Notes: generated from the letters alone by a model not told the origin. Positions 13,896 through 28,987 are shown, counted from the stretch's first letter. The stretch is 64,000 bases of DNA from Desulfomonilia bacterium (GCA_050014195.1 JBEKDT010000018.1:1-64000), one strand, 5' to 3'. Numbers and translations: made by a program.

Positions 13896-14630
13896 TTATT
13901 CGTGAGCCTTCCGGAAAACCCTCCCACTTACCATAGATGAGATGGTCCCTTCTTTGAACACGATGTCATACCAGAATGCCATATAGATATGTACCACAAC
14001 GAACAGGATGACGAGCCATGTGAAGACATGATGGATAAACCTCACGGTCGCCAGCCCGCCAAGTGCCTTCTGGAGCGGATGAAGCACGGTATAGAAAAAA
14101 CCGATCACACCGCCGCTGTAGTCAACCCCTGCAAGAATCAGCCCTGTGAGCACAAGAACAAGCAGCATGATCAACAGAGCGCCATATGCAAGCGACTGGA
14201 GCGGGCCGTAGAGGAAGTTGTGCTTGGGCCTCTTTTCAGAAATGAACAGGTAGAACTTGATCTGGGTCCAGAAGTTTTGTGTGTCTGTCCATGCGAAGAA
14301 GTCCTTGAAGTCGGCATGGAACCTGCTGAAGAACATCAGATAGACCCTCCAGATGAACACGAAGGTGAGGATGATACCGCACATCAGGTGTACATACCTT
14401 GCGTAGCCCATCATGAACTTGTTGATGGTCTCTCCGGGCACCACCGCAACCGTGATGGAAGGAGGTATCAGGCTGTTGAAGGTAATGCTGGTGGTCTCTG
14501 CCGATAAATTTGTAAAGGGACGTGCAATATAGAAGCCTGTGATGATCAGCCCTAATATGCTGATGACCATCAGCCAGTGGTTCACCCGTATTGCCAGGCT
14601 CCACTCTTTCGTTACGGTAATAGTATCCAC
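13896..14630 (-). CDS. Ni/Fe-hydrogenase b-type cytochrome subunit
   Basis: RVNHW, YVHL, RFIHH, VHIY heme-ligand His residues in TM helices; follows large subunit. Confidence 0.92.
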   Translation of the reverse strand: MDTITVTKEWSLAIRVNHWLMVISILGLIITGFYIARPFTNLSAETTSITFNSLIPPSITVAVVPGETINKFMMGYARYVHLMCGIILTFVFIWRVYLMFFSRFHADFKDFFAWTDTQNFWTQIKFYLFISEKRPKHNFLYGPLQSLAYGALLIMLLVLVLTGLILAGVDYSGGVIGFFYTVLHPLQKALGGLATVRFIHHVFTWLVILFVVVHIYMAFWYDIVFKEGTISSMVSGRVFRKAHE

Positions 14631-14650
14631 GTGGGTCCCTCCTTAGTCTT

Positions 14651-16318
14651 TTAGAGAACCCGGAACTTTTTGATCTCGTCCGTGTCGGGCCTGATGATGT
14701 GGACCGCGCATGCCATGCAGGGGTCAAAGGAGTGGATGGTCCTCAAGATCTCGAGGGGCTGATCCGGGTTGGCAAGCTTGGTGCCGATAAGGGATTCCTC
14801 GTACGGACCCCTCTTACCGTCCTTGTTGCGCGGGGCGCAGTTCCAGGTGGACGGAACGATGGCCTGGTAGTTCCTGATCACATGGTCTTCGATGACGACC
14901 CAGTGGCCCAAGGCACCGCGAGGCGGTTCTGTCATGCCGCGGCCCTTGCCCGACTTGGGAACTGCGCAGCGGGTCCAGGTCCTGGTATCGCCGGCCTTGA
15001 TGTTGGCAACAAGCTCACCTACCCATACTTCCGCATGGTCGGCGACAAGCTTGGTCTCCAGCAACCTGGCCGCGGTCCTTCCGAGTGTTGAGAAGAGAAC
15101 GGTGGCAGGCAGGCCTGTGGCCTTCAGTGTATTGTCAACCAGGGGCTTGATCCTCTCGTCGCCCTGGGCATAGCCAAGAACCATACGTGCGAGCGGTCCG
15201 ACCTCAAAGGGCTGTCCGTCATAGTTCGGCGCCTTGCACCAGGTATACTTCTCGCCCCCCTTGACATTCCCTTTTGCATCCAGACCCGTATATTCGGGAT
15301 CTGTTGTTCCGACATAAGGATGCAGCGGCTGATCGCTCTTATACCATGAATGGGTGCTGTCCTCGGCGATCTTGTCCTCGTCAAGCGGCAGGGGTTTCGA
15401 TATGTCGCCCCCGATGATGATGCCCTTGGGCAGCAAGGTCTTGGTATAGCTGTCATCGAGCGGCATTCCGCCGTAGCAGAGGTAATTCTTCACCCCGGCA
15501 CCCACGCCTGCAAGTCCTTCGTCCTTGTAGAAGCCGGCTGCCAGGAGGACATCGGGCATATATGCGGTCTCGATGAAGTTCTTGAGTTCCTTGTACTTGA
15601 AGAGGTACTCACCGATCCTGCCGGCATCGAGCACGTCCATAACGGATGTGACGCCGCCGGCGACCAGCGTCTGCGGATGCGGGTTCTTGCCGCCGAAGAT
15701 GGCCATCATCTGGGCACCGATCTTTGAGAGCTGCAGTGCATCGAGATAATGCGATGTGATGATGAGATTGGCCTCAGGCGAGAGCTTGAAGGATGGGTTG
15801 CCCCAGTACGCATTTGCAAAGGGCCCGAGTCTGCCGGACTCAACATACTTCTTGAGCCGGTTCTGGACTGCCTTGTAGTGGGTTGCAGAGCAGTTGTAGG
15901 GGTTGTCACTGTACTGTTTGGCCAACGCGACCGCCTTATCCGGGTCTGCGACAAGGGCCTTGGTGATGTCAACCCAGTCGAGCCCGTGCAGGTGATAGAA
16001 ATGCATGACATGGTCGGTCATGTACAGGGCCGCGTGGATGAGGTTCCTCACGAGCCTGGCATTGGTCGGCGGCTTTACGCCCATGGCATCTTCCACTGCC
16101 ATGATGCTCGCCTCGTAGTGGACGTAGGTGCACACGCCGCAGAACCGCTGGACCATCAGAGGCGCATCGCGGGGGTCCCTGCCCTTCAAGATCGTCTCGA
16201 TGCCCCTCCACAGGGTGATGCTGCTCCAGGCATCCTTTACGGTATTGTTCCCGTCGAGTTCAACTTCTATACGTAAATGTCCTTCGATCCTGGTGATCGG
16301 ATCAACTATCATTCTCAT
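14651..16318 (-). CDS. [NiFe]-hydrogenase large subunit, group 1 (motifs fit 1b)
   Basis: DPITRIEGH; L1 QRFCGVCTYVH; L2 SFDPCMACAVH plus cleavable C-terminal tail; GGGAGG RBS before 16318. Confidence 0.96.
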   Translation of the reverse strand: MRMIVDPITRIEGHLRIEVELDGNNTVKDAWSSITLWRGIETILKGRDPRDAPLMVQRFCGVCTYVHYEASIMAVEDAMGVKPPTNARLVRNLIHAALYMTDHVMHFYHLHGLDWVDITKALVADPDKAVALAKQYSDNPYNCSATHYKAVQNRLKKYVESGRLGPFANAYWGNPSFKLSPEANLIITSHYLDALQLSKIGAQMMAIFGGKNPHPQTLVAGGVTSVMDVLDAGRIGEYLFKYKELKNFIETAYMPDVLLAAGFYKDEGLAGVGAGVKNYLCYGGMPLDDSYTKTLLPKGIIIGGDISKPLPLDEDKIAEDSTHSWYKSDQPLHPYVGTTDPEYTGLDAKGNVKGGEKYTWCKAPNYDGQPFEVGPLARMVLGYAQGDERIKPLVDNTLKATGLPATVLFSTLGRTAARLLETKLVADHAEVWVGELVANIKAGDTRTWTRCAVPKSGKGRGMTEPPRGALGHWVVIEDHVIRNYQAIVPSTWNCAPRNKDGKRGPYEESLIGTKLANPDQPLEILRTIHSFDPCMACAVHIIRPDTDEIKKFRVL

Positions 16319-16345
16319 AATATTCCCTCCCGTCAACTATTGCTG

Positions 16346-17560
16346 CTATTCGTGCGAACCGTGCTCAGGCTCGGACTTCTTGGGCTGGCCGTGATCCTTA
16401 GCCCCGGTGAGCCCTGCATGGGCGGCTACTCCGACGATGGTGGCAGCGGTCAGTGCCGTGCCTAAGGCATCAACCCTGGCGGTTACACCCCAGCCGCCGA
16501 CAAACTGATCACTGATGGGCTTCTCCAAAGGCGCCATGGTGTCCCAGAATGCCGGCTCGGTGCAGCCCATGCACCCGTGGCCTGCCATAATGGGCCAAGA
16601 CGCCCCGTCGTTGAACCTGACCTTTGCGCAGTTCCCGTAGGTGTAAGGACCCTTACAGCCCATCTTGTAGAGGCACCAGCCCTTCTTTGCCCCCTCATCG
16701 CCCCACTCTTCCACATACTCGCCGGCATCATAATGCGGCCTGCGCTCGCAATAGTCATGGATGCGCTTGCCGTATGCCCAAATAGGCCTTCTGAGATTGT
16801 CGAGCGGAGGCATTCCGCCGAACATGAGGAAGTGCAGCACGGTGCCGACAAAATTCTGCGGGCTCGGCGGGCAGCCTGCAATGTTGACCGTCGGAACACT
16901 CAAGGCATCAAGGATGCCCATGGCATTCGTGGGATTGGGTTTGGCGGCCTGGATATTCCCGAAACATGAGCAGCTGCCGATGCAGATGGTCGCTGCAGCC
17001 TTGGCAGTGACCTCTTTGCCGATCTCGATGGCGGTCTTTGCCTTGGGGCCGAGCCTCAGGTACTGGCCGTTCATCCCCATGGGGATCGCGCCTTCGATGA
17101 CACAGACATATTTGCCGGGGAAGTCTTTCATGCACTTCTCCAGGCACTCTTCCGCCTGCTTGCCCGCAGCGGCCATCAGTGTCTCATGATATTCAAGCGA
17201 TATGGTATCCAGCAGGACATCATCCACGTTCGGATATGATGTCCTCAGGAAGGCCTCGGAGCAGCCGGTGCACTCTGCAAAGTGGAGCCATACCACCGGC
17301 AGCCTGCTGAAGTTTTCCGCCGCCCGGGCAACCATGGGCCTGAAGATCGGCGGCAGCATCAGTGCTGCGGTCATTGCGGAAGTCCACTTCAAGAAATCCC
17401 TCCTGGTTACGCCCCTCTCCTTGAGGACCTCGCCGAAGTCCTCCCGGGCCTTGGGCAGTTCCTTGTCCATGAGATCCATGTGAACCTGGCACTGCTCCAT
17501 CAGCTCTCTGTAGTACCCGCTGATCCTGCTGCGGTATTGCGCATCCCGATCTTTACCCAT
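16346..17560 (-). CDS. [NiFe]-hydrogenase small subunit with Tat signal and C-terminal membrane anchor
   Basis: RRDFLK twin-arginine motif, ECTGCSE, GCPP, HDYC, CLYKMGCKGP, GHGCMGC; hydrophobic C-tail. Confidence 0.96.
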   Translation of the reverse strand: MGKDRDAQYRSRISGYYRELMEQCQVHMDLMDKELPKAREDFGEVLKERGVTRRDFLKWTSAMTAALMLPPIFRPMVARAAENFSRLPVVWLHFAECTGCSEAFLRTSYPNVDDVLLDTISLEYHETLMAAAGKQAEECLEKCMKDFPGKYVCVIEGAIPMGMNGQYLRLGPKAKTAIEIGKEVTAKAAATICIGSCSCFGNIQAAKPNPTNAMGILDALSVPTVNIAGCPPSPQNFVGTVLHFLMFGGMPPLDNLRRPIWAYGKRIHDYCERRPHYDAGEYVEEWGDEGAKKGWCLYKMGCKGPYTYGNCAKVRFNDGASWPIMAGHGCMGCTEPAFWDTMAPLEKPISDQFVGGWGVTARVDALGTALTAATIVGVAAHAGLTGAKDHGQPKKSEPEHGSHE

Positions 17561-18002: not shown

Positions 18003-18416
18003 TTAGTCACGATCCGGCGAGATGATCTCAACGGTTGGGAAATAGGAACTGATCCTTGAGGTATCCCGGGTAACGAGGGGATATCCTGCAACCGCAGCAT
18101 GGGCTCCGATAAAGAAATCCGGCAGGGGAGAAACCTTGTTCCCCTTTCGCTTACGGTATTTCAGGAATGCCTTCCCGGCAAGAAATAAAGCCTCCCTGGG
18201 GATATCCTCCAGGACAAGGCCACACCCTAAGATCACCTTCTCCACCTCTTCAATCTTCCGGAACCCGATGGATACCTCGGCATAGATAATCGGGTTGATG
18301 CAAAGGATGTGTGAAGACCGGTAGTAGTCCAGCATGTACTCAGACCAGTCTGCCCAGTTGGCATCATCCTCGAACACATCGAGCAGAACGTTTGAATCCA
18401 CCAGGATGCGGCTCAT
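18003..18416 (-). CDS. vapC: VapC-family PIN toxin
   Basis: ILVDSNVLLD, IIYAE, PDFFIGAHA, LVTRD. Confidence 0.92.
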   Translation of the reverse strand: MSRILVDSNVLLDVFEDDANWADWSEYMLDYYRSSHILCINPIIYAEVSIGFRKIEEVEKVILGCGLVLEDIPREALFLAGKAFLKYRKRKGNKVSPLPDFFIGAHAAVAGYPLVTRDTSRISSYFPTVEIISPDRD

Positions 18417-18871: not shown

Positions 18872-19465
18872 TTATTTGCCGAAGCAGGTGTTCACGAAGT
18901 CCCAGTTGATGAGCTTATCGATTACGGCCTGGAGGTAGTCCGGCCTGCGGTTCTGGTAGTCGAGGTAATAGGCGTGCTCCCAGACATCGATGGTGAGCAA
19001 CGGTTTTTGCCCGTGTACGAGAGGGGTGTCGGCATTGGCGGTCTTTGTGATCTTGAGCTCGCCCTTGTCCAGCACGAGCCAGGCCCATCCACTACCGAAC
19101 TGAGTGACACCGGCGTTCTTCAACTCCTCGAAGAACTTCTCCGCACTGCCCCAGGTGGAGATGATCTTTGCTGCCACGGCACCTTTGGGCGCCCCGCCCC
19201 CGCCCGGCTTCAGGCACTGCCAGTAAAAGGAATGATTCCAGACCTGGGCTGCATTATTGAAGAGTCCGGCCTTAGACGGATCTGCTGCGGCCTTCATGAT
19301 AATGGCGTCGAGAGTCTCTTTCTCCATCTCCGTCCCTGCAATGAACTTGTTGGTATTGTCCACATAAGCCTTGTGGTGCTTGCCGTGATGAAAATCCAGG
19401 GTATTCGCGCTGATGACAGGTGCCAGTGCATCTTTGGCATAGGCAAGATCGGGTAGTACTATCAT
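18872..19465 (-). CDS. sodB: superoxide dismutase [Fe]
   Basis: HHGKHH, FNNAAQVWNH (Fe-type Gln), DVWEHAYY. Confidence 0.95.
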   Translation of the reverse strand: MIVLPDLAYAKDALAPVISANTLDFHHGKHHKAYVDNTNKFIAGTEMEKETLDAIIMKAAADPSKAGLFNNAAQVWNHSFYWQCLKPGGGGAPKGAVAAKIISTWGSAEKFFEELKNAGVTQFGSGWAWLVLDKGELKITKTANADTPLVHGQKPLLTIDVWEHAYYLDYQNRRPDYLQAVIDKLINWDFVNTCFGK

Positions 19466-19595: not shown

Positions 19596-21023
19596 TTAAA
19601 ACCCAATCTGCTCAGGGGTGTTTTCATCTATCTGCGTGCCGTCTCCGAGCTGGCCGTAAAAATTCCTACCCCATGTCCAGATCGTCCCATTTTTCTTGAT
19701 GGCTACGAAATGCGCCCCCCCTGCAGCCACAACGGCCCAGTCGGTGTCAGAGCCCACTTGTCCCCCATCCACCCAAAGTGAGCCGTCTGCTTTAAGGGCC
19801 ATAGTATTATTTCCACCCGCAGCTACAGCAGACCAGAGAGTACCTAAGCCGCTTATTCCCAGAACATTATCCACCCATCCCACCGGCCAGAGGGAACTGT
19901 CATCCTTGAGGGCTATGGCGCTATAACCGCCTGCACCGATTTCTTTCCAGTCGGAATCAGATCCATATTGCGTTGGTGTGTTTCTGGCGCTCGCCGAAGG
20001 ATTATCTCCTACGAGCAGACCATATGTTTTATCTCCCCATTCCCACATCGTGCCGTTGATCTTGATGGCTATAGTGAAGTTTCGACCTGCCGCTACAGCT
20101 GCCCAATCAGCATCAGAGCCTACTCGAACGGGGCTGCTCGTATCTGTCAATGTACCGTCACCGAGCTGGCCGAAATGATTACTCCCCCACGTCCAGAGAG
20201 TCCCTTCTTTCGTGATCGCTACGGAATGATTCCCTCCGCCAGCCACAGCCGCCCAATAGCTATGAGAACCCATTCGTACAGGGGAATGTCTGTCTGTATG
20301 GGTACCGTCTCCAAGTTGACCATATTGATTCTCCCCCCATGTCCAAAGTGTTCCGTCTTCCCTGATTGCCAAGGTGAAGTGGTCTCCTGCCGCTAACGTA
20401 GCCCAGGTAGTGCCAGAGCCTACTTTGACAGGAATGCTTTTATCTGCATTCGTGCCATCCCCGAGTTGGCCATATGAATTATATCCCCACGCCCAAAGGG
20501 TGCCGTCGACTTTTATCGCCGCCGTGTGTTCCCATCCGGCAGCAGCCTTAACCCAGCCTCCGGCCTCCAGCGACTCTGCCGGTGTTTGAGTACCCCCCTC
20601 GGTTACGAACGTCCACGTGTACTCGGATGAGAGTGCATTGCCGGAGGAATCCTTCAGATCTTTCGTGATTTTCACGATGTACATGGTGCCTTCTGAAAGA
20701 GGATATACAGGCCTAAACGTGGCAGTGGAACCCGATGCAGTCACATGGCATATTACCTCATTACCCAAAACACTTAATGTTATGGTTGAGTTTGTTATCG
20801 TAGCAGGGTCAATGGTTTCGCTGAAGGTAACGCTGGGGTTTATATCGATAGATACACCAGTCGCCCCTTTTGCCGGGAATGTAGAGCTTACCGTAAAAGC
20901 AGATTCTCCGGATACACTATGACCCCCAGTGTGTCCACCCCACCACTTGCAGCCCACAAAGAGAACAACAATGACAAGAAAAACCAGAGGTCGTAAGATC
21001 CTCCATAGCCGCGCTGTTTCCAT
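19596..21023 (-). CDS. lipoprotein with bacterial Ig-like (Big_5-type) domain and RCC1/BLIP-II repeats
   Basis: Lipobox FVGC; VTFSE.ID..T / D.SGNAL...YTWTF Ig signature; repeated GTLWxWGxNxxGQLGDGT. Confidence 0.85.
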   Translation of the reverse strand: METARLWRILRPLVFLVIVVLFVGCKWWGGHTGGHSVSGESAFTVSSTFPAKGATGVSIDINPSVTFSETIDPATITNSTITLSVLGNEVICHVTASGSTATFRPVYPLSEGTMYIVKITKDLKDSSGNALSSEYTWTFVTEGGTQTPAESLEAGGWVKAAAGWEHTAAIKVDGTLWAWGYNSYGQLGDGTNADKSIPVKVGSGTTWATLAAGDHFTLAIREDGTLWTWGENQYGQLGDGTHTDRHSPVRMGSHSYWAAVAGGGNHSVAITKEGTLWTWGSNHFGQLGDGTLTDTSSPVRVGSDADWAAVAAGRNFTIAIKINGTMWEWGDKTYGLLVGDNPSASARNTPTQYGSDSDWKEIGAGGYSAIALKDDSSLWPVGWVDNVLGISGLGTLWSAVAAGGNNTMALKADGSLWVDGGQVGSDTDWAVVAAGGAHFVAIKKNGTIWTWGRNFYGQLGDGTQIDENTPEQIGF

Positions 21024-21141
21024 GGTTAAGCTCCCTCACATATAAAAATAAACATTACATATGCTGCTGCGTCATAAAAACCATGCTCTCCCCTATCTAA
21101 GCAAATTCACTTTGCAGATAAAGGCATGTATTGATTTACCA

Positions 21142-21157
21142 AGCAAAGAAAATGCCA
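21142..21157 (-). promoter_or_regulatory. candidate sigma54 -24/-12 promoter for the RCC1 lipoprotein
   Basis: Minus strand TGGCAT-TTTCT-TTGCT with exact spacing, ~120 nt upstream of the start. Confidence 0.65.
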
Positions 21158-21311
21158 CCATGCATATGTTTTTGTTTCAATTAGTTAGTTTGAGAAAAGC
21201 ATGTAATATACGAATGATAGGAGAATATTATTTCCATTAATGGAGAAAAATATTGCACTTTAGTTGAGGATGAAAATAATTTATTAGTGATGTGGACATG
21301 GGAAAGAACTC

Positions 21312-22493
21312 TCAGATCTTTTCCACTTCGACATATTTTTCGCGGGCGGACAATACCTGTACCAGTTCCCTGATATAGACCATGCGCATGGGTTCGCCGC
21401 GGATGATGTCCGCGACCTGATTCGGATTGATTGCCGTACCGACGATGAGGTGAATATCATCTGCCATCATAAGAGAACGGGCCAGGCGTGTTGAGGCATC
21501 GTTATCATTGGGCAGGTCATAAATGGTTTTTGACGTTCGGAGAATTTCCGCCGCCTGCCCGAGAGTGAGTATCCCCTCGGTAACCAGATCAACCCCTTTC
21601 ATGAGGGCTGTGGGAGGAGAACCTTTCTTATGCTTGGGTGCGTCCTTCTTTCTTTTGGCAGGAGGGACCCAGTCCACCACAAGCTCTTCCTTCAGGACAC
21701 GGGCCGCCATCTGTGCGGTGCTGCCGCCGCAGATGATCTTTTCGCCTAAAGCGCCCAAAAGCCTTTTGACGGCAAATTCATCAAGGTCTTTGTTTGCCGG
21801 AGGCCCGGTGAGGATGGTCGTGGATATGGCCGGACGCACCTTCATGCCGATGACCGTAGCATCATCACCCGGTTTGTCTTCATATAATTTGAGGCATGTA
21901 TTGGACAGGGCCTGGGTCAGCTTGAATGTGTCGACAATCCCTGCCTGTACGAAGCGTTGAACCGACTTGGCGATATTGCCCCAGCCCCAGCCAAGCCGGT
22001 AGATACCCCCCAACCCGGCATGTTCGTATCCGTCACTGATCAGGACCATGTAATCGTTTTCCTGGAGATCAAACCGTACCTCCCTGACCTTTCTGCCGCT
22101 CACTTCCCGTTCCTCCATGGGAAGGTTGATGAGATCATTATCCCGCACCAGGATGAGTGGTGGGGAATCAAACTCTACGAGATGTGCATCGCGTCCGTTA
22201 TAAACGGAGAGCACGGCGAATGTTGCATATGCAAGCTTGCGAACACTGCATTCCGGCAAGGTTTCCGCCAGGGTCTGCATGACATCTTCCACCGGGGCGC
22301 CCGATTCGAACATCCGGGCGGCTATCTCCGAAGTCAGTGTCGAGAGGATGCTGGCCTTTACCCCGCTGCCCAGGCCGTCGGAAAGCACTGCAATGAAGGA
22401 GTCGGGTTTCGAGCGGATGATGACCGAATCACCGCACAGCTCTTCACCGGCCTTGTTAAGGCTGGACCAGGAGAATTCAACGAGCTGCCTCAC
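21312..22493 (-). CDS. SpoIIE/PP2C-type serine phosphatase (HfsC-like)
   Basis: ELCGD, LSDGLGSG, ISDG, PGDDAT; C-terminal extension with ICGGSTA and VTEGILTL. Confidence 0.88.
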   Translation of the reverse strand: MRQLVEFSWSSLNKAGEELCGDSVIIRSKPDSFIAVLSDGLGSGVKASILSTLTSEIAARMFESGAPVEDVMQTLAETLPECSVRKLAYATFAVLSVYNGRDAHLVEFDSPPLILVRDNDLINLPMEEREVSGRKVREVRFDLQENDYMVLISDGYEHAGLGGIYRLGWGWGNIAKSVQRFVQAGIVDTFKLTQALSNTCLKLYEDKPGDDATVIGMKVRPAISTTILTGPPANKDLDEFAVKRLLGALGEKIICGGSTAQMAARVLKEELVVDWVPPAKRKKDAPKHKKGSPPTALMKGVDLVTEGILTLGQAAEILRTSKTIYDLPNDNDASTRLARSLMMADDIHLIVGTAINPNQVADIIRGEPMRMVYIRELVQVLSAREKYVEVEKI

Positions 22494-24208
22494 TTGCTCC
22501 CTTCCTTTTCAAGGAGCTTGGCCAGATGGGAAACGATGGCCTTGCTCTCGGCCGTGGTTTCCCCCAGGAGGTGGGCAATCTCATGGGCGACCCGCATCTG
22601 CTTGCTCACTACCTCGCGGGTCCTCTCGAGGGTTTCCTCACGGATAGATTTGAATTTTTCCCTTTCCCTTTCCCTCTCCGTAACATCACGCATGATGGCG
22701 ACCATCAGCGGCTGGCCTTCCACCCGCACTATGGTTTGCTCTGCAATAAGATCCTTTCTGAGCTGGCGCGCCTTGCCCATGACGGGTTTGCCCTTATCAC
22801 GGACAGAAAGAAAATCGTCCAGTACGGATATCAGGACAGACAGGTGTTTTCCCTCGACGTCTGAGCGTTTGCATTGAAAGAGCTTTTCCGCCGAGGGTGA
22901 CATGTCATGAATGATGAGGTCGTTGTCGATGATGATGATCGAGTTGGGGGTGACATCCATGACGACCTGGCGCAAGGATTCGGAACGGCTGCGCATATAT
23001 GGGATGCACATGGTGGCTTCAGCCATCCCTCTCAAGGTTGCAACGGCCTTTTCCCTGCAACTGGAATACCCGCAGGCCCCGCAGTTCAGTTCATCGTCTT
23101 TGGTGTACTTATTGACGCGATGCAGGACCTCCTGAATCTCATCTTCCCTGAATTCCGGCACATGCTCTTTTCTGTCCTTATAGGTGCGTTCCAGGGGCGG
23201 CCAGTCCTCTCTTGTGATGTTAATATCCGGTTGATGATGGGAATGAAAATCTATAATCTTCTGACGCGCCAGATAGATGCCCCCTGCCAGATCGGCCATT
23301 GCCGGGCCGTTCACACACCCACCCTTGCAGGCCAGGAGCTCCACCAGACTTGCGTTAAGCCTGCCTGTACGGATATCATTGAGGACATCATGGCAGGCAT
23401 CGAGCCCTGAAGCCACAATCATATGGTTATCAAGGATATCCGTATTCATCTTTGCAGTTCCTATGAGACCGCCTTCGATAGGGAACAGCCGCGCCTTCTC
23501 AGACTGCTGCCGCTCAATAATCTTTCGGGTTTGCCCGAATTGGACGTCCTTTTCCGAAAACAATTCCTTGATCCCCAGAAATGTCATGACGGCATCGATC
23601 CCTCCCGCCACGGATTCATCGACAATCTCCATTTTTTTTGCAATACACGGGCCTATGAAGACGATATAGGCTTCAGATCCGTATTTCTTTGCCAGCAACC
23701 TTCCATGGGCAATCATGGGAGAAACAATGGGCGCCAGATGGCCTATCAGATCGGGATGATACTGCTCGATCAGGTTTACCACTACCGGGCATGCCGAGGC
23801 AATGATCGGCCGGCGGTCCTGTGCCTTTTCGACAAACTCCCTGTGGGCAAAAGCCACGATCCGGGCCCCTATGGCCGTCTCTTCTGCGGCATGAAAGCCG
23901 ATAACCTTCAATGCCTTCTCAAATTCTTCAAAACTGTTCATATCGAAGTAGGCCGGGGCCGACGGCGCGACCGATGCAACAATCTTACGCCCATCTTTCT
24001 GGGCATTTAAAATATCCTGCCTGGCACTCCTTATGCTTTTCGCCTTCTGGGGACAGATGCGGACGCATGTTCCGCACAGGATGCAGAGCTCCTGCACGAC
24101 TTGCGCCTGTCCTTCCTTGACCCGTATGGCCTTGACATCGCAGTTGCGCACACACCGGTAACAGTCACGGCAACGGGCGGGATTCGTCATGATGACCGGT
24201 TCGCTCAT
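22490..24208 (-). CDS. PAS-domain sensory [FeFe]-hydrogenase, group C (HfsB/HydS-like)
   Basis: 2x[4Fe-4S] N-terminus; H-cluster motifs ASACPVV, GPCIAKKME, ELLACKGGCVNG; LNCGACGY..C; PAS; AHEIAHLLGETTAE tail. Confidence 0.9.
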   Translation of the reverse strand: MSEPVIMTNPARCRDCYRCVRNCDVKAIRVKEGQAQVVQELCILCGTCVRICPQKAKSIRSARQDILNAQKDGRKIVASVAPSAPAYFDMNSFEEFEKALKVIGFHAAEETAIGARIVAFAHREFVEKAQDRRPIIASACPVVVNLIEQYHPDLIGHLAPIVSPMIAHGRLLAKKYGSEAYIVFIGPCIAKKMEIVDESVAGGIDAVMTFLGIKELFSEKDVQFGQTRKIIERQQSEKARLFPIEGGLIGTAKMNTDILDNHMIVASGLDACHDVLNDIRTGRLNASLVELLACKGGCVNGPAMADLAGGIYLARQKIIDFHSHHQPDINITREDWPPLERTYKDRKEHVPEFREDEIQEVLHRVNKYTKDDELNCGACGYSSCREKAVATLRGMAEATMCIPYMRSRSESLRQVVMDVTPNSIIIIDNDLIIHDMSPSAEKLFQCKRSDVEGKHLSVLISVLDDFLSVRDKGKPVMGKARQLRKDLIAEQTIVRVEGQPLMVAIMRDVTEREREREKFKSIREETLERTREVVSKQMRVAHEIAHLLGETTAESKAIVSHLAKLLEKEGSK

Positions 24209-24292
24209 AGAGTCTCCTTTTAGGAAACGACATCTTGGTTAAGAACAAGATGTATTCTACTCAGGTTAATCATGTTCACGTCTTCTCACGCT

Positions 24293-24577
24293 TCATGATG
24301 ATGTCGTTCTTTTCTTTGACAATAGCTTTGTATCCACATGCCCCATGATCTCTTTATAGAAGAAGTCTTCGGCATCATCGGGTCTGATACCGCTGAAGGC
24401 ACGTTCACCGACACGTATGGAAACCCCCTTGGAACAGGTGTCCATGCAAAAGGCGCCGACAATATCCACCAGCCCTTGTAGGCCCTCTTTCTCAATCAGG
24501 CGCTGAATCTCTGAGGCAAGCTCGTCCGATCCGCGGATACTGCACGAGCTGCCGACGCAGATGGTTACGATGAGCAT
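24293..24577 (-). CDS. thioredoxin-like [2Fe-2S] ferredoxin (HfsA-like)
   Basis: ICVGSSC..RG and AFCMDTC..G cysteine pattern; GAGG RBS. Confidence 0.88.
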   Translation of the reverse strand: MLIVTICVGSSCSIRGSDELASEIQRLIEKEGLQGLVDIVGAFCMDTCSKGVSIRVGERAFSGIRPDDAEDFFYKEIMGHVDTKLLSKKRTTSS

Positions 24578-24591
24578 GTCGCCTCTTCTCC

Positions 24592-27500
24592 TCACCCCTT
24601 GGATTCGTCGAGTAATTGCATCAAATGGGCATCAATGAAAGCCGATGCATCCGCCGGATCAACCTGGCTGACGATCTTGCCGCCGACCATGACATTCGGC
24701 CCGCCTTCACACTGGCCTGTGCAGAACCGCGCCTTGACCCTGAACCGCTCGGAAAGACCCCGCTTCCTCAGTTCCGCCGAAAGACCTTCCAGAAGCCGCC
24801 AGGCCCCCTTGACGTAGCAATTCGTACCGATGCAGACACCGATGTCGACAATGGGCATCTCTTTCAGCGCCTCATCCATCCTGGCCCCTTCGATGCGCAT
24901 GGAGCGGCGGTGGTATGTGGTGTGCAGGGCATGATGCGATGTATCGCTGTCCGGCTCTCCTAGCCAGTTCGTATAGATTGCCTGGACGGTAGGATTGTCC
25001 TGGCTCGTCCTGATGGGGGAACCTTGATCGAGGCGGTAGAGGACATCGAGTCGATCGGCCGTTTCACTGATCAGTTGTGGGGCCGGGTTGCCGGAGCCGT
25101 TGATGCAGCCGCCGGGGCAGGCCATGACCTCGATGAGATCGTACGGTGCATCCGAGGCCCTGATGCGGTCGATCAGCTGCTGGGCGTTCTGTAACCCGCT
25201 GACCACGGCCAGACGCACCTGAGAGCCCCCCAGGGTGACTTCTGTCTCCTTGACCCCCTTAAGCCCCCTGACGCCTTCATAATTGAAGCTGTCCAGGCGT
25301 TTTCCCGTCACGCGCTCGGCCGCCAGACGCAGCGCCGCTTCAGCCACACCGCCGCTAGCACCGAAGATGATGCCTGCGCCGCTCACCTTGCCGAAAAAGG
25401 CATCGACCGGAACGGGTTTCACGGAATGGGGATCGATATGCCTTTCCGTGAACATATCAATGATGTCATTGGTGGTAAGGACCGTATCCACATCCGGAAT
25501 GCCACCGGTTTTGAATTCGGCCCTCCTGGCCTCATATTTCTTGGCGTTGCAGGGCATGATGGAGACGAAGTACAGCAGCTCGGGGCGCATCTTCAGCTGT
25601 TTCGCAAAATACTGTTTCATGACCGTGCCGAACATCTGCTGCGGCGATTTGCATGAAGACAGATGGGGGAGTATGTCGGGCGCCATCTTCTCACAGTAAT
25701 TCACCCAGGCCGGGCAGCAGGAGGTTATCTGCGGCAGCACGCCTCCTTCGGCAAGCCGGCTTAAGAACTCGGTCCCCTCTTCCATGATGGTCAGGTCTGC
25801 GGCCCAGCAGGTATCAAAGACAAAGTTGAAGCCGACCTGTTTCAAACAGGCGGAAAGGATCGGCATGACGTCTTCGCCTGCTATATCGTAGTGCTGGCCG
25901 AAGGCGGCGCGCACGGCAGGTGCAATCTGGGCGACAACGGTGAGCTCCGGATTTTGCAGGGCCCGGTACACGTCAGGCAGCACCGGTTTCAGCGTGAGGG
26001 CTCCGGTGGGACAGATGGTGGCGCAATGGCCGCAGGACACACACTCAGTCAAATCCAGGGGACGATGATCGTTCGGTCCGATGGTGAGGATATTGTTTGT
26101 TTCATAAAAGCTCAAGGCCGAGACGCCTTCCATCTCGCGGCAGACCTTCAGGCACAGCCCGCACAGGATGCATTTGCCGGTGTCCCTGGTAAGGATCGGG
26201 TGGTTTTCGTCGATGGGAAGCGGCCTTGCAGGCTGCGATTTATCGAACCGGACTCCGTAGAGGCTTGCATATTGACGCAGGTCGCATGCATAGCGTTCCG
26301 TACAGCCGCAGGAAAGGCAGCGCAGCGCCTCGGTCATAACGGTTTCCGTATCCCAGGTTTTACTCGATTCCTCGAAATTCTTTCTTCTCGTCTTGGGAGC
26401 CAGAGCCGTGACCTCATTGCGATCTGCCGGCTTGATGCCTTTGAACGTTTCGGCCGGGACATCGTGCCAGTCTCCCTTGGTGCACGTGTAAGGCCCTGCG
26501 GACGGTAAAACGATGCCGGTTCTCACATACTGATCGATGGCCTCGGCCGCCTTTTGACCTGCTCCGATGGCTGCAATGGCGATATCAGGACCGGTTACGC
26601 AGTCACCACCGGAAAAGACCCAGGGGACAGAAGTCTGCATGGTTGCCGGATGAACCTTGACGTTGCCCCGCTTATCGATGAGGTTCTCATCGCCGATACA
26701 GAACCCATCCACGGCCTGGCCGATGGCCGAGATGATGGTATCGGCCGTCAAGGTGAATTCTGAACCGGCAACGGGTACGGGCCGGCGCCTGCCGCTCTTG
26801 TCCGGCTCGCCCAAGACCATGTGGATGCAGTTCAGCTGCAATATATTTCCTGCCGCCTTGATTGATACAGGCGCTGTCAGATATTGGATATTGACGCCCT
26901 CTTCGACGGCCTCTTCGATCTCGATCTCCTGGGCGGGCATCTCCTGGCGCGTCCGCCGGTAGGCAATGGTCACATCTTTTGCGCCCAGCCTGACTGCACT
27001 GCGGGCCGCATCCATGGCCGTATTTCCTCCACCGATAACAATGACCCTTTCGCCCAGTTCGGGCTTTTCGCCCCTTGAGAGTCTTGCGAGAAAATCGAGA
27101 CCGGACATCACGCCCTTAAGCCCTTCCCCTTCCACACCGATGGCTGTGGCCTTCTGTGCGCCCAGACCGACAAAGACCGCGTCAAAGCTGTCTCTTTTCA
27201 GGGACTCCAGGGTGAAATCACGGCCCAGCTTCTTGTTGTATCGGATCTCTATGCCCAGATCGAGGATGGCTTGAATCTCGGCATCAAGCTGTTTCTCGGG
27301 CAGGCGGTAGTAAGGGATGCCCCACCGGAGCATGCCTCCAGCGGCTTCGTGCATCTCGAAGATCGTCACCCGGTGTCCTTTTCTCCTCAGGAAATACGTG
27401 GCGGTCAGACCGGCAGGCCCGGCACCGACGACGGCAACTTTATAACCGGTATCCGGCATGCACACAGGTTTGTAAGGAGAGAGCTGATATTGGTCCCAGT

Positions 27501-28023
27501 CCGCCACAAAGCGTTTTATTCCATTGATGTTCACAGCACCATCCCGTGCATTGCGGCGGCAATCGGACTCGCATGGATGGGGACACACGCGTCCGCACAC
27601 GGCGGGCAAGGGGTTGCTCTCTTTGATGACTTCCAGCGCCTCCATGAAATTCCCACAGGCCACATGATAGATATATTTCTGGATATCGATATGGGCGGGA
27701 CAGCGCAGCACGCAGGGGGCAACACAGTCGCCGTAATGATTCCTCAGCAGGGCCTGGAGATAGATCTTGCGATAGCTGCTCAGCGCATCGGAGTCGGTTC
27801 GAACCACCATGCCGTCTGTAACGAAAGTCGATGTGGCGGAAACGAATCTCGTTTTGTCGCCATCAGCTACTTCCACAAAGGCAACTTCAAGAGCGCTCGG
27901 AGGGCTTACCCTCGGGTCATACCCCAGTGCAGGGATGTCAATGCCGTTTGCGCGTGCCGCATCGATAATGGTCATGGTGTTTTCTGCAGTGCATGTCTTT
28001 TCATCGATTATCATCGAGATCAT
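24592..28023 (-). CDS. GltD/NfnB-like flavoprotein fused to a catalytic group A [FeFe]-hydrogenase with C-terminal Trx-like [2Fe-2S] domain
   Basis: CVAPC..RCP, CGRVCPHPCE, GAGPAG, GGGNTA, YRR; CILCGLC / CVSCGHC; TSCCPAW, MPCNAKKYE, EVMACPGGCING; CIGTNC..FCTGQC. Confidence 0.9.
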   Translation of the reverse strand: MISMIIDEKTCTAENTMTIIDAARANGIDIPALGYDPRVSPPSALEVAFVEVADGDKTRFVSATSTFVTDGMVVRTDSDALSSYRKIYLQALLRNHYGDCVAPCVLRCPAHIDIQKYIYHVACGNFMEALEVIKESNPLPAVCGRVCPHPCESDCRRNARDGAVNINGIKRFVADWDQYQLSPYKPVCMPDTGYKVAVVGAGPAGLTATYFLRRKGHRVTIFEMHEAAGGMLRWGIPYYRLPEKQLDAEIQAILDLGIEIRYNKKLGRDFTLESLKRDSFDAVFVGLGAQKATAIGVEGEGLKGVMSGLDFLARLSRGEKPELGERVIVIGGGNTAMDAARSAVRLGAKDVTIAYRRTRQEMPAQEIEIEEAVEEGVNIQYLTAPVSIKAAGNILQLNCIHMVLGEPDKSGRRRPVPVAGSEFTLTADTIISAIGQAVDGFCIGDENLIDKRGNVKVHPATMQTSVPWVFSGGDCVTGPDIAIAAIGAGQKAAEAIDQYVRTGIVLPSAGPYTCTKGDWHDVPAETFKGIKPADRNEVTALAPKTRRKNFEESSKTWDTETVMTEALRCLSCGCTERYACDLRQYASLYGVRFDKSQPARPLPIDENHPILTRDTGKCILCGLCLKVCREMEGVSALSFYETNNILTIGPNDHRPLDLTECVSCGHCATICPTGALTLKPVLPDVYRALQNPELTVVAQIAPAVRAAFGQHYDIAGEDVMPILSACLKQVGFNFVFDTCWAADLTIMEEGTEFLSRLAEGGVLPQITSCCPAWVNYCEKMAPDILPHLSSCKSPQQMFGTVMKQYFAKQLKMRPELLYFVSIMPCNAKKYEARRAEFKTGGIPDVDTVLTTNDIIDMFTERHIDPHSVKPVPVDAFFGKVSGAGIIFGASGGVAEAALRLAAERVTGKRLDSFNYEGVRGLKGVKETEVTLGGSQVRLAVVSGLQNAQQLIDRIRASDAPYDLIEVMACPGGCINGSGNPAPQLISETADRLDVLYRLDQGSPIRTSQDNPTVQAIYTNWLGEPDSDTSHHALHTTYHRRSMRIEGARMDEALKEMPIVDIGVCIGTNCYVKGAWRLLEGLSAELRKRGLSERFRVKARFCTGQCEGGPNVMVGGKIVSQVDPADASAFIDAHLMQLLDESKG

Positions 28024-28231
28024 ATCTTCTTCTCCGATCTGAGTTTTCCATGATGGCTGTAGAGACTACCGGAATGTGTAAAGCTTCCATTACCAGACTT
28101 GATGATCCGTGATACGTACTCGAGTATACCAAGATTGTTGCTATACTTACTTCTGGTGGTATCATTCATGATATACCATCCGTTCTTTCGTTAATCCCAC
28201 ATCCATCCTCTGAATCTGTCATGACGAGAGT

Positions 28232-28247
28232 AGCAAGTTTCATTCCA
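28232..28247 (-). promoter_or_regulatory. candidate sigma54 promoter of the [FeFe]-hydrogenase operon
   Basis: Minus strand TGGAAT-GAAAC-TTGCT with exact GG/GC spacing; IHF-like TATCAGCCAGTTA ~30 nt further upstream. Confidence 0.55.
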
Positions 28248-28423
28248 ATGATATATTTATTATCATATACTGTATTATCAGCCAGTTATAGATATCTGCT
28301 GGGAGTGATCACTCCAAGAGTTTATCGGTTCGTTATGGTCTAAAGAAAGAAACGTTCAATTGTGGATCGTACCCGAGTTTGCCCTTGACTCAAGAATGTA
28401 CATGAACCTAAAAAGACGTTCTC

Positions 28424-28987
28424 ATGACCGGTGTCGTACTCATAGGCGGGAAGTCCGAACGGTTCGGCAGCGACAAGGTGCTTTCACAGTTCAGAGGGAA
28501 ACCGCTTATTGAGCATGTGGTTGATACTATTCAGCCGCTTTTTGATGCAATCATCCTCGTCGGACACACGCGAAAAGGCCTGGAGAAATACCGCGTAGTG
28601 GAAGACACCGAGCCGGGCTGTGGTCCTCTGGGGGGGGTGTATACTGCATTGAATTCCATTCAATCGAAGTACTGCTTCGTCTGTGCCGGTGACATGCCGA
28701 ACATGAGCAGAGAATTTATCTCATTCATGATCACTCAAACGGATAACCACGACATAGTCATGCCTGTCTGGTCCAAGGGCAGGGAACCGCTCCATGCAAT
28801 CTATTGCAGAACAATCATCCCTTATGCGGCATCCATGTTGGAGAAGAATAATTTCAGGATCTTCTCCCTGATCGAAAAGGTGAATACACTCATCATTCCC
28901 GAAGAAACTGTTCGGATTTATGGTGATCCTTATGTATTGTTCTCGAACATCAACACCCTTGGCGATATGGTGCGTTTAAGGTCCTGA
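28424..28987 (+). CDS. mobA: molybdenum cofactor guanylyltransferase
   Basis: LIGGKSERFGSDK, GPLGG, GDMP, EPLHAIY, NIN. Confidence 0.88.
   Translation: MTGVVLIGGKSERFGSDKVLSQFRGKPLIEHVVDTIQPLFDAIILVGHTRKGLEKYRVVEDTEPGCGPLGGVYTALNSIQSKYCFVCAGDMPNMSREFISFMITQTDNHDIVMPVWSKGREPLHAIYCRTIIPYAASMLEKNNFRIFSLIEKVNTLIIPEETVRIYGDPYVLFSNINTLGDMVRLRS

What the first reader, a model, noticed from the sequence alone, without database searches (positions are those of the whole stretch)
24592..28023. Single-chain GltD/NfnB-like flavoprotein fused to a catalytic [FeFe]-hydrogenase
Seen: one 1143-aa ORF containing, in order, a ferredoxin-like N-terminus, a GltD-type module (two Cys clusters, GAGPAG FAD site, GGGNTA...YRR dinucleotide site), a RCLSCGC..CDL cluster, 2x[4Fe-4S], canonical H-cluster motifs (TSCCPAW with the proton-transfer Cys, MPCNAKKYE, EVMACPGGC) and a C-terminal Trx-like [2Fe-2S]. 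Known: the GxGxxA+RR pattern is typical of NADP(H) use in GltD/NfnB proteins, and glutamate-synthase-linked group A hydrogenases are recognised but poorly characterised. Inference: a monomeric H2:NADP+ oxidoreductase; no HydB/NuoF or NfnA partner lies in the operon.
Basis: partly seen in the sequence, partly recalled or inferred. Interest (0 to 1): 0.78.

Follow-up and report, generated by a model that had tools for sequence, protein, structure and literature searches.

The report
Single-chain NADPH-type iron-iron hydrogenase
This gene encodes a hydrogen-making or hydrogen-using enzyme that carries its own NADPH-reading flavin module in the same protein chain; the type is already catalogued and common in uncultured anaerobes, but nobody has yet tested what it does.

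Summary
The one correction is that the "ferredoxin-like" N-terminus has lost all four cluster cysteines.

It is not an assembly artefact. Full-length copies occur in more than 100 independent assemblies, and contigs from four other peat or wetland runs tile it without indels or joints.

By the published rule it is a HydDB group A2 ("glutamate-synthase-linked") [FeFe] hydrogenase, a class still called functionally uncharacterised in 2026. Residues 3-681 are homologous end to end with NfnA/StnC of the solved NfnABC/Stn transhydrogenases, which bind NADPH. This includes the Lys-ligated cluster next to FAD. Residues 574-1119 match Thermotoga-type HydA, including its C-terminal [2Fe-2S] domain.

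The [2Fe-2S] site that links NfnA/HydA to the flavoprotein HydB is gone, and no hydB is adjacent. This supports a stand-alone FAD-to-H-cluster wire (NADPH <-> H2, confidence about 0.6).

New context: the gene heads a conserved operon with a small [2Fe-2S] protein, a sensory hydrogenase (HydS) and a PP2C phosphatase (10 of 10 relatives).

This scan had already reached the same reading twice on other genomes. It is a new member of a known, untested kind, of moderate interest.

The parts
24592..28023 (-). Gene for the 1143-aa single-chain GltD/NfnL-[FeFe]-hydrogenase (HydDB group A2 type); stop codon at 24592-24594
   Evidence: ORF; Pfam and NCBIfam; PDB homology
27739..28023 (-). Residues 1-95: N-terminal Fer2_4 (beta-grasp) domain with no cluster ligands (G34, L45, A48, T64 in place of four Cys)
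   Evidence: Alignment to 9bov_A and 8oh5_C. The ligands are lost in 99 of 114 full-length rows. The domain is still 67% identical on average across 37 relatives.
26344..27738 (-). Residues 96-560: NfnL/GltD-like module. It holds two [4Fe-4S] clusters (C100, C104, C108, C143, C147, C151, C155 and K170), the FAD site GAGPAG and the NADP(H) site GGGNTAMD...YRR.
   Evidence: The A7 ligands Cys-108, Cys-147, Cys-151 and Lys-170 of Csac NfnA (PMC11829005) are conserved at the same numbers. These columns are invariant in 114 of 114 rows.
25954..26343 (-). Residues 561-690: all-Cys cluster motif C569/C572/C574/C580, equivalent to FS4C of CpI and A3 of NfnA, followed by the 2x[4Fe-4S] F-domain (C618-C628, C661-C671)
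   Evidence: Alignments to NfnA/StnC and to CpI and HydA1; conservation
24889..25953 (-). Residues 691-1045: H-cluster domain plus the fused small-subunit domain, with motifs TSCCPAW, MPCNAKKYE and EVMACPGGC
   Evidence: Fe_hyd_lg_C E 1.4e-88 and Fe_hyd_SSU; TIGR02512 above its cut-off; alignment to 8a6t_A, 7q4v_A and CpI
24595..24888 (-). Residues 1046-1143: C-terminal thioredoxin-like [2Fe-2S] domain (C1064, C1069, C1101, C1105), of the 'A5'/M3c type
   Evidence: PF01257. The best PDB match is the C-terminal domain of T. maritima HydA, 7p5h_A 572-630. All four Cys are present in 99 of 114 rows.
24293..24577 (-). Small (94 aa) thioredoxin-like [2Fe-2S] protein gene. Its likely start is ATG at 24577, 14 nt after the hydrogenase stop and behind a GGAG.
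   Evidence: Sequence. The conserved start MLI(I/V)TICVGSSC and four invariant Cys appear in 11 of 11 rows. The PF01257 hit is weak (E 8e-4, below cut-off).
22490..24208 (-). HydS-type sensory [FeFe] hydrogenase (group C, phosphatase-linked type): 2x[4Fe-4S], H-domain with altered motifs (ASACP, GPCIAKKME, ELLACKGGC), C-terminal FeS motif and PAS domain
   Evidence: Pfam; translation
21312..22493 (-). PP2C/SpoIIE-family phosphatase (393 aa). Its start overlaps the HydS stop by 4 nt. Residues 220-393 have no family match.
   Evidence: Pfam SpoIIE E 3.4e-13; ORF table

Best explanation
The gene encodes a stand-alone, non-bifurcating NADP(H)-linked [FeFe] hydrogenase.

Proposed mechanism: NADPH or NADP+ exchanges a hydride with FAD in an NfnA/StnC-type module. 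Single electrons then run along one wire to or from protons and H2:
- FAD
- the Lys170-ligated [4Fe-4S] (A7)
- the second module cluster (A6)
- the all-Cys FS4C/A3-type cluster
- the two F-domain [4Fe-4S] clusters
- the H-cluster

The [2Fe-2S] site (A1) that hands electrons to the flavoprotein HydB/NfnB in all Bfu-type relatives has been deleted. The branch that is a dead end in NfnA is therefore the productive one here.

Direction should follow H2 pressure. At the roughly 10 Pa typical of methanogenic peat, E(H+/H2) is about -296 mV, so NADPH oxidation to H2 is downhill. At high H2 the enzyme would make NADPH.

Expression or activity is probably set by the co-operonic H2 sensor HydS and its PP2C phosphatase.

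Shown here: the domain order, the ligands, the homologies, the loss of A1, the absence of hydB, and the conservation of the operon. Inferred: the substrate (NADPH), the electron path, the direction and the regulation.
For: (1) Residues 3-681 align without large gaps to Csac NfnA 9bov_A (E 1.6e-188) and S. ovata StnC 8oh5_C (E 1e-167), and residues 29-501 and 518-679 to Tsi NfnA. In these enzymes FAD takes electrons from NADPH and passes them through A7-A6-A3-A2-A1 to B1 of the B subunit, and the FAD sits at the end of the chain and does not bifurcate (PMC11829005 passages; PMC10482914 passages).

(2) The A7 ligands C108, C147, C151 and K170 are conserved. Bifurcating NfnB/NfnL have Glu at the K170 column. 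K170 is invariant in alignments A1 and A3.

(3) The dinucleotide site GGGNTAMD...YRRT..EMPA is the same as in four NADPH-using homologues.

(4) All four A1 ligands are lost here, and in 99 of 114 full-length rows.

(5) In the genome-contig loci, a HydB-like gene is present in 0 of 7 H-cluster fusion loci but in 54 of 60 NfnA/StnC-like loci. Counting only loci with at least 1.8 kb of upstream DNA, the figures are 0 of 6 against 49 of 53.

(6) The own genome (100% complete) has a single PF01512 hit, on contig 14, next to its own HydA.

(7) The H-domain aligns to CpI and HydA1 with all three H-cluster motifs and the acidic, Ser and Arg positions of the proton path.

(8) HydG, HydE and HydF are present in the genome.

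(9) The order A2, Trx-like, HydS, PP2C holds in 10 of 10 relatives with downstream DNA.
Against: - There is no activity data for any member of the class.
- Two thioredoxin-like [2Fe-2S] modules, the C-terminal domain and the small downstream protein, are conserved but are not needed for a simple wire. This hints at another partner or branch.
- The C-terminal (A5/M3c) domain is otherwise typical of HydA subunits of bifurcating HydABC (PMC11406978 passages).
- In 4 of 10 related loci a HydB::GltD-HydA cluster lies 2-5 kb away.
- NADPH versus NADH specificity is inferred from homology only; I found no residue-level rule in the passages I read.
- The oligomeric state is unknown.
Confidence: 0.6

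Rival explanations
1. A three-substrate (confurcating or bifurcating) hydrogenase without HydBC. The NfnL-like FAD, or a site formed with the C-terminal [2Fe-2S] domain and the small thioredoxin-like protein, would couple NADPH and a low- or high-potential one-electron carrier such as ferredoxin to H2.
For: - Two extra, conserved [2Fe-2S] modules are present.
- NfnL-type FAD can bifurcate in NfnSL (PMC10482914 passages).
- The small gene starts 14 nt after the hydrogenase stop.
- In subtype I the N-terminal [2Fe-2S] is kept, as in ferredoxin-dependent CpI-type enzymes.
Against: - The residue at position 170 is Lys, not the Glu of bifurcating NfnB/NfnL.
- In NfnA/StnC the same FAD is terminal and non-bifurcating.
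- There is no second flavin domain.
Confidence: 0.2
2. It is the A subunit of a Bfu-type complex that borrows the HydB::GltD and HydC proteins encoded on contig 14.
For: - That cluster lies 2-5 kb from the operon in 4 of 10 related loci: L135, L136, L139 and L140.
- The C-terminal A5-type domain is typical of HydA in HydABC.
Against: - The A1 cluster, the only known link from BfuA to B1, has no ligands.
- The contig-14 cluster has its own complete HydA with an intact Fer2_4 domain.
- The two loci are on different contigs in this genome.
- 0 of 7 hydrogenase-fusion loci have an adjacent hydB.
Confidence: 0.1
3. It supplies reductant directly to glutamate synthase (the literal 'glutamate-synthase-linked' reading), acting as a GltD-like small subunit for a GltB.
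For: HydDB's speculative description; the GltD-family hits.
Against: - The three PF01645 (GltB catalytic domain) hits in the genome are on contigs 3 and 7, none near this operon.
- The module is nearer to NfnA/StnC (E 1e-188) than to glutamate synthase small chains (E 5e-68).
Confidence: 0.04
4. The fusion is an assembly artefact or a dead gene.
For: None found. One relative (G121, L140) has the whole operon in pieces, but its neighbouring genes are split too.
Against: - The frame is intact.
- More than 100 independent full-length copies exist.
- Contigs of 4 other runs carry no indel or joint.
- All ligand columns are invariant.
Confidence: 0.01

Closest known systems
HydDB group A2 'glutamate synthase-linked (putative)' [FeFe] hydrogenases
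   Same: A group A H-cluster domain with a GltD/glutamate-synthase-type domain in the same gene (PRK12814 and PRK12771 hits). This is the rule quoted in PMC5037454 and in bioRxiv 10.64898/2026.06.24.733704.
   Different: The class is defined only by domain content and has no assigned function. This clade also lacks the N-terminal cluster, has a C-terminal [2Fe-2S] domain, and sits in a HydS-PP2C operon. I found none of these three features in the passages read.
NfnA of Caldicellulosiruptor saccharolyticus NfnABC (9BOV/9BP5), StnC of Sporomusa ovata StnABC (8OH5) and NfnA of Thermococcus sibiricus (9N5U)
   Same: The same order of N-terminal domain, NfnL-like FAD/NADPH module and FS4C-type plus 2x[4Fe-4S] clusters over about 680 residues. 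The A7 cluster ligands (three Cys plus Lys-170) are also the same.
   Different: Those proteins end in a catalytically dead Fdh-like domain, keep the A1 [2Fe-2S], and work only with the bifurcating B and C subunits. Here the C-terminal part is a live H-cluster domain, A1 is lost, and no B subunit gene is adjacent.
HydA of Thermotoga maritima HydABC (7P5H; 'M3c' type with the C-terminal A5 cluster), and T. kivui / A. woodii HydA1
   Same: The F-domain, H-domain, small-subunit domain and C-terminal thioredoxin-like [2Fe-2S] domain align over residues 574-1119.
   Different: Those are subunits of FMN-based bifurcating complexes that use NADH and ferredoxin, and they have a His-ligated FS4C-type cluster. 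Here an NADPH/FAD module is inserted after the N-terminal domain and the cluster motif is all-Cys.
NfnB/NfnL of the bifurcating NfnAB (NfnSL) transhydrogenase (4YLF, 5JCA)
   Same: The same FAD/NADPH fold and NADPH-site motifs (E 4e-93 and 4e-81).
   Different: NfnB/NfnL have Glu where this protein has Lys-170. They pair with NfnA/NfnS, and their FAD bifurcates. No NfnA-type gene lies in this operon.
hfs operon of Thermoanaerobacterium and hydA2-hydS of Ruminococcus albus
   Same: A catalytic [FeFe] hydrogenase is co-operonic with a PAS-bearing sensory hydrogenase and a Ser/Thr phosphatase (passages of PMC5707799 and PMC11837493).
   Different: There the catalytic enzyme is a ferredoxin-linked hydrogenase; here it is the NADPH-module fusion.
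Non-bifurcating NADH-dependent HydAB of Syntrophus aciditrophicus (PMC7311640; search listing and abstract only)
   Same: A pyridine-nucleotide-linked [FeFe] hydrogenase that needs no ferredoxin, from a syntrophic lineage. It is a functional analogue.
   Different: It is a two-subunit enzyme that uses an FMN/NuoF-type subunit and NADH, not a GltD-type FAD module in one chain.

Membership tests
[FeFe] hydrogenase, group A (catalytic) | H-cluster motifs L1 (TSCCPxW), L2 (MPCxxKxxE) and L3 (ExMxCxxGC), and a family model score above its cut-off | tested here: met
   All motifs are present. TIGR02512 scores 454 bits against a cut-off of 406. The motifs align to CpI and HydA1.
[FeFe] hydrogenase, group A (catalytic) | The maturases HydE, HydF and HydG are present in the genome | tested here: met
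   All three score above their cut-offs on contig 14, with a second HydE-like gene on contig 5.
HydDB group A2 | A GltD/GltA/glutamate-synthase-type domain in or next to a group A hydrogenase gene, and no NuoF | tested here: met
   PRK12771 is above its cut-off, and PRK12814 scores 705 bits over residues 2-632. No NuoF gene is in the operon. The rule was read. The HydDB classifier itself was not run.
BfuABC family, A subunit (NfnA/StnC/HydA) | The A1 [2Fe-2S] cluster in the N-terminal domain, which passes electrons to B1 | tested here: not met
   The four ligand columns read G, L, A and T.
BfuABC family, A subunit (NfnA/StnC/HydA) | Genes for the B (NuoF-like) and C (NuoE-like) subunits in the same cluster | tested here: not met
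   None is in the operon. HydB is present in 0 of 7 fusion loci against 54 of 60 NfnA-like loci.
BfuABC family, A subunit (NfnA/StnC/HydA) | An NfnL-like insertion whose A7 cluster is ligated by three Cys and one Lys | tested here: met
   C108, C147, C151 and K170 are all present.
NfnB/NfnL of bifurcating NfnSL | A Glu ligand on the FAD-proximal cluster, and an NfnA/NfnS partner gene | tested here: not met
   The Glu column holds Lys. No NfnA-type gene is in the operon. The four PF10418 hits in the genome lie on contigs 6, 10 and 14.
NADP(H)-specific GltD-type dinucleotide site | Residues that bind the 2'-phosphate | tested here: inconclusive
   The YRR(T/S) stretch is shared with four NADPH-using homologues, but I found no residue-level rule in the passages read. 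That the Arg pair binds the phosphate is recalled, not tested.
Group C sensory [FeFe] hydrogenase (the neighbouring gene) | An altered L1-L3 (loss of the proton-transfer Cys), a C-terminal FeS motif and a PAS domain | tested here: met
   The motifs ASACP, GPCIAKKME and ELLACKGGC are present, together with PF04060 and PAS hits. Which substitutions define the group is recalled from the HydS literature.

The most novel reading that the evidence does not exclude
The enzyme would be a new kind of HydBC-free electron-confurcating hydrogenase. The NfnL-type FAD, together with the C-terminal [2Fe-2S] domain and the small thioredoxin-like protein that took the place of the lost N-terminal cluster, would couple NADPH and a second one-electron carrier to H2. 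This would let syntrophs vent NADPH electrons as H2 at H2 pressures where the simple reaction would stall.
Probability: 0.12. Interest if true: 0.8.

Novelty: new member of a known kind. Interest (0 to 1): 0.42.

Why it matters
Group A2 is one of the commonest [FeFe] hydrogenase classes. A 2026 preprint reports it in 17% of bacterial species of a human-gut genome collection. It still has no assigned reaction, so H2 budgets leave it out.

This clade offers a clean test case. It is a single chain whose cofactor wire can be read against solved NfnA/StnC and HydA structures, it has no B/C partner to reconstitute, and it comes with its own H2 sensor.

If the enzyme links H2 directly to NADPH, it would be a one-protein route between H2 and anabolic reductant in peat and digester syntrophs. 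It would also be of interest for H2-driven NADPH regeneration.

Tried and rejected
- Complex prediction of residues 560-1143 with the small Trx-like protein: no answer, score 0.00. This is no evidence for or against binding.
- RNA evidence: no RNA holder was listed, so nothing can be said about expression.
- Promoter and terminator scan of 20900-28500: 8 promoter-like sites against 5.9±1.9 expected, and 7 terminator-like sites against 6.9±2.2. This is not informative for the operon ends.
- Equating the small protein with HfsA: dropped, because HfsA is described differently in PMC11837493. My recalled assignment of hfsD as a kinase was wrong; hfsD is the catalytic hydrogenase.
- My first guess that the Lys ligand lay in the GRVC stretch was wrong. 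It is K170, in IKRF.
- Looking for a residue-level rule for NADPH specificity in PMC10482914: none found.
- Literature searches for a biochemically characterised GltD-fused hydrogenase (full text of CC-licensed PMC papers and bioRxiv only): none found. Subscription-journal papers are not covered.
- The exact split of Cys ligands between clusters A6 and A3 could not be settled from sequence.
- Whether subtypes I and II are sister groups is unresolved in the free tree. A single clade is not rejected (AU p 0.644).
- Structure prediction and fold search were not run, because sequence homology to solved structures already covers nearly the whole chain.
Full report
**Observation.** The ORF table and translation show one intact ATG-started frame of 1143 codons at 24592-28023, on the minus strand.

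Pfam gives, in order: Fer2_4 (1-78), Fer4_20 (100-178), Pyr_redox_2 (194-489), a 4Fe-4S dicluster (612-677), Fe_hyd_lg_C (695-976, E 1.4e-88), Fe_hyd_SSU (989-1040) and 2Fe-2S_thioredx (1059-1131).

NCBIfam gives:
- PRK12814 over residues 2-632 (705 bits, below its equivalog cut-off of 916)
- PRK12771 above its cut-off (531 against 516)
- TIGR02512 '[FeFe] hydrogenase, group A' above its cut-off (454 against 406)
- the group A6 model as the best hydrogenase hit, but below its cut-off (605 against 765)

The single correction concerns the N-terminus. In the alignments to Csac NfnA and S. ovata StnC, the four cysteines that hold their [2Fe-2S] cluster are G34, L45, A48 and T64 here.

**Is the fusion real?** A protein search scored 7993 candidates, of which 7942 had E <= 0.001. 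The best 120 were listed. Of these, 113 are longer than 1000 aa; I dropped the 7 shorter, partial rows. The full-length rows include:
- copies of 63-96% identity named from Desulfomonilia, Smithella, Syntrophus, Syntrophorhabdaceae and a spirochaete MAG, some on contigs of 4.0-4.8 Mb
- copies of 46-48% identity from Bacillota (Clostridium thermosuccinogenes, Gracilibacter)

The stretch 24200-28100 is held by 24 peat or wetland metagenome runs from 23 studies; 15 of these are marked as possible sources. I laid the contigs of four runs that are not so marked. They tile the stretch with no other letters, no indels and no joints. Records X17-6 (26032-26925) and X19-16 (25209-26670) cross the boundary between the flavin half and the hydrogenase half. 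An assembly artefact is excluded.

**What the two halves are.** Against solved structures:
- Residues 3-681 align in one stretch to NfnA of Caldicellulosiruptor saccharolyticus NfnABC (9bov_A, E 1.6e-188) and to StnC of Sporomusa ovata (8oh5_C, E 1e-167).
- Residues 29-501 and 518-679 align to NfnA of Thermococcus sibiricus (9n5u_A).
- NfnB/NfnL of the NfnSL enzymes (4ylf_B, 5jca_L) match only the flavin module (102-500).
- Residues 574-1040 match HydA1 of T. kivui and A. woodii and also CpI. T. maritima HydA (7p5h_A) matches out to residue 1119.
- The last 103 residues searched alone hit the C-terminal domain of T. maritima HydA best (572-630).

So the protein is a Thermotoga-type HydA with an NfnL-like FAD/NADPH module inserted after the N-terminal domain. 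Put the other way, it is an NfnA/StnC whose dead Fdh-like tail is replaced by a live H-cluster domain.

The papers on those structures (passages read) state three things. NADPH binds next to the FAD. The FAD is at the end of the chain and does not bifurcate. Electrons run A7-A6-A3-A2-A1 to cluster B1 of the B subunit, while the branch towards the Fdh-like domain (A4, A5) is a dead end.

They also give the A7 ligands in Csac NfnA as Cys-108, Cys-147, Cys-151 and Lys-170. The same residues at the same numbers are present here, and they are invariant in my alignments. At the Lys-170 column the bifurcating NfnB and NfnL have Glu. The module is therefore of the non-bifurcating NfnA/StnC kind.

The NADPH-site stretch GGGNTAMD...YRRT..EMPA matches that of all four NADPH-using homologues.

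**The H-cluster site.** The alignment to CpI and to two HydA1 structures shows the three H-cluster motifs. It also shows conserved residues in the stretch TIMEEGTEFLSRL / LSSCKSPQQ, which corresponds to the proton-transfer path of CpI. The residue numbers of that path are recalled. The motif C569-x2-C572-x-C574-x5-C580 aligns with the FS4C site of CpI, with Cys in place of the His ligand, as in NfnA/StnC. HydG, HydF and HydE are in the genome, so the cofactor can be made.

**Two subtypes.** I scored 114 full-length rows: the window protein plus its 113 homologues.
- 15 rows have the four N-terminal Cys and lack a complete C-terminal set. Four of these have no C-terminal domain, and 11 have a domain that lacks the second Cys pair.
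- There are no mixed rows.

The cluster-less N-terminal domain is still 67% identical on average to its relatives (37 rows). The H-domain is 81% identical and the C-terminal domain 61%. The N-terminal domain is therefore kept, presumably for a structural role.

I built a quick maximum-likelihood tree of the flavin module from 102 rows:
- 78 of the 80 loci (2 were dropped for short coverage)
- the window protein
- 10 of the 98 subtype II proteins and 12 of the 15 subtype I proteins
- the flavin module of the genome's own HydB::GltD

Each subtype forms one clade (SH-aLRT 100), nested among NfnA/StnC-like sequences. Their mutual relation is unresolved in that tree. A tree holding the two subtypes together had a higher likelihood than the free search found, and it is not rejected (AU p 0.644). 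One origin of the fusion is possible but not shown.

**Partners.** On the same strand downstream lie three genes:
- a 94-aa thioredoxin-like [2Fe-2S] protein; its likely start is ATG at 24577, 14 nt after the hydrogenase stop and behind a GGAG, and its four Cys are invariant in 11 of 11 rows
- a 572-aa HydS-type sensory hydrogenase, with Fer4, an H-domain carrying ASACP / GPCIAKKME / ELLACKGGC, the PF04060 FeS motif and PAS
- a 393-aa PP2C/SpoIIE phosphatase whose start overlaps the HydS stop

Upstream is a divergent MobA-like gene. No NuoF/HydB or NfnA-type gene lies in the operon.

In the whole genome (29 contigs, 100% complete) PF01512 hits once, on contig 14. That gene is a 1013-aa HydB fused to its own GltD-type module. 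It is flanked by HydC and a complete 588-aa HydA, and followed by HydG, HydE, a Lyase_1 gene and HydF.

The genome has three Fe_hyd_lg_C hits in all. It has four DHODB_Fe-S_bind hits on contigs 6, 10 and 14. Its three GltB-type hits are on contigs 3 and 7. There is therefore no physical link to glutamate synthase.

**Comparative control.** The genome-contig scan returned 80 loci. I sorted them by content:
- 7 encode H-cluster fusions (Smithellaceae, Syntrophales, Cellulomonas, Actinotalea, Mageeibacillus, a Negativicutes MAG and an unclassified MAG). None has a HydB-like gene in the locus; 6 of the 7 have at least 1.8 kb of upstream DNA.
- 60 encode NfnA/StnC-like proteins without H-cluster motifs. 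Of these, 54 have a HydB-like gene in the locus, or 49 of the 53 with at least 1.8 kb upstream.
- 13 are other GltD-type proteins.

These genomes are related to one another, so the counts are descriptive rather than a statistical test.

**Distribution and operon conservation.** I searched 122 species genomes of the same class. A full-length or near-full-length match occurs in 11, counting the window's own genome:
- All 11 are in family f1 (11 of 52); none is in family f2 (0 of 70).
- In the window's own genus it occurs in this genome and in 5 of 14 others.
- Only six candidates per genome were scored and 151 matches were not listed, so this is a lower bound.

I then fetched larger stretches from ten of these genomes. 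The order hydrogenase, Trx-like, HydS, PP2C holds in all 8 that have downstream DNA. It also holds in the two closest genome-contig loci (L020, L021). That makes 10 of 10. One further locus is cut by a contig end. In another (L140) all four genes, and the neighbouring genes too, are broken into pieces, which looks like assembly error.

In 4 of the 10 fetched stretches (L135, L136, L139, L140) a HydB::GltD-HydA cluster like that of contig 14 lies 2-5 kb away.

**Mechanism.** The best-supported reading is a stand-alone NADP(H)-linked hydrogenase with one wire: NADP(H)/FAD, A7, A6, A3, the two F-domain clusters, and the H-cluster.

Deletion of A1 removes the only known exit to a B subunit. This agrees with the absence of an adjacent hydB.

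From standard potentials (established values; my arithmetic), E(H+/H2) at pH 7 is -414 mV at 1 bar and about -296 mV at 10 Pa. E0' of NADP+/NADPH is -320 mV. The enzyme would therefore evolve H2 from NADPH at syntrophic H2 levels and reduce NADP+ at high H2. A co-operonic H2 sensor and phosphatase fit an enzyme whose useful direction depends on H2.

This arrangement parallels hydA2-hydS of Ruminococcus albus and the hfs operon of Thermoanaerobacterium (passages). There, however, the catalytic partner is ferredoxin-linked.

What this reading does not explain is why two thioredoxin-like [2Fe-2S] modules are conserved. That is the main ground for the rival readings: a second, one-electron partner, or an association with HydB::GltD and HydC.

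**Comparison with the literature.**
- A June 2026 preprint (10.64898/2026.06.24.733704, passages) still calls A2 'functionally uncharacterised'. It finds A2 in 17% of bacterial species of a gut genome collection, and it assigns A2 by the very domains hit here.
- The JBC 2025 paper on Tsi NfnABC (PMC12018979, passages) notes that the NfnL-like domain also occurs in group A [FeFe] hydrogenases.
- Seven full-text searches found no biochemical study of such a fusion. Subscription journals are not covered.

I found none of the following in the passages read: the loss of A1, its reciprocal relation to the C-terminal cluster, or the HydS-PP2C operon.

**Earlier findings of this scan.** Two earlier reports on other genomes (e1-3086152 and e1-2397361) describe the same kind of protein with the same reading and the same closest structures. 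I reached the points above from my own calls before seeing them, and they agree. Notes on HydB::GltD fusions (for example e1-7427488) led me to PMC11406978. That paper describes such B subunits as 'sub-type I BfuB', and describes the M3c HydA with a C-terminal A5 cluster that is often accompanied by a group C3 sensor.

**Verdict.** This is a real, intact and well-conserved member of a catalogued but untested enzyme class. Interest is moderate. The value lies in a clean, single-chain test case for group A2 and in a structural argument that it works without a bifurcating partner.

Noticed in passing
G000 contig 14, locus L100 6025-17363 (not in the window): A second [FeFe] hydrogenase cluster: HydC (168 aa), a 132-aa ORF, a 1013-aa HydB whose ferredoxin-like tail is replaced by a GltD/NfnL-type FAD module, HydA (588 aa), HydG, HydE, a Lyase_1 gene and HydF. 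This B-subunit fusion is described as 'sub-type I BfuB' in PMC11406978 and in a Kiritimatiellia preprint, and is untested. It lies 2-5 kb from the A2 operon in 4 of 10 related loci.
   Followed up: partly
window 13303-17560 (-): A membrane-bound uptake-type [NiFe] hydrogenase cluster: a small subunit with a TAT signal, a large subunit, cytochrome b and a HycI-type protease. The organism therefore has at least three H2-active enzymes plus a sensor.
   Followed up: no
window 21312-22493 (-), residues 220-393 of the PP2C protein: The phosphatase has a roughly 170-residue C-terminal part with no Pfam match at E <= 1. It is conserved full-length in relatives (PP2C hits span 1-393). Its target is unknown.
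   Followed up: no
proteins P0108-P0119 (subtype I fusions, Bacillota): Their C-terminal domain keeps a C-x-C-x2-C stretch but lacks the second Cys pair of the thioredoxin-like [2Fe-2S] site. Four others (P0112, P0120-P0122) have no such domain. This is the exact reciprocal of the N-terminal cluster loss in the window's clade.
   Followed up: partly
L140 (G121 contig 15, 194000-213000): The whole four-gene operon and the neighbouring HydB::GltD gene are split into many short frames. This is probably indel errors in that assembly rather than decay.
   Followed up: no
window 27008-27038: In three runs, short contigs from other organisms share only this 31-base stretch, which encodes the GGGNTAMD NADPH-site motif, and then run on unlike the window (loose ends). 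This is a sign of how conserved the site is at the DNA level.
   Followed up: no
window 19596-21023 (-): A 475-aa protein with a bacterial Ig-like (Big_5) domain and RCC1 repeats lies directly downstream of the operon. It is followed by an Fe/Mn superoxide dismutase (18872-19465) and a PIN-domain gene (18003-18416).
   Followed up: no
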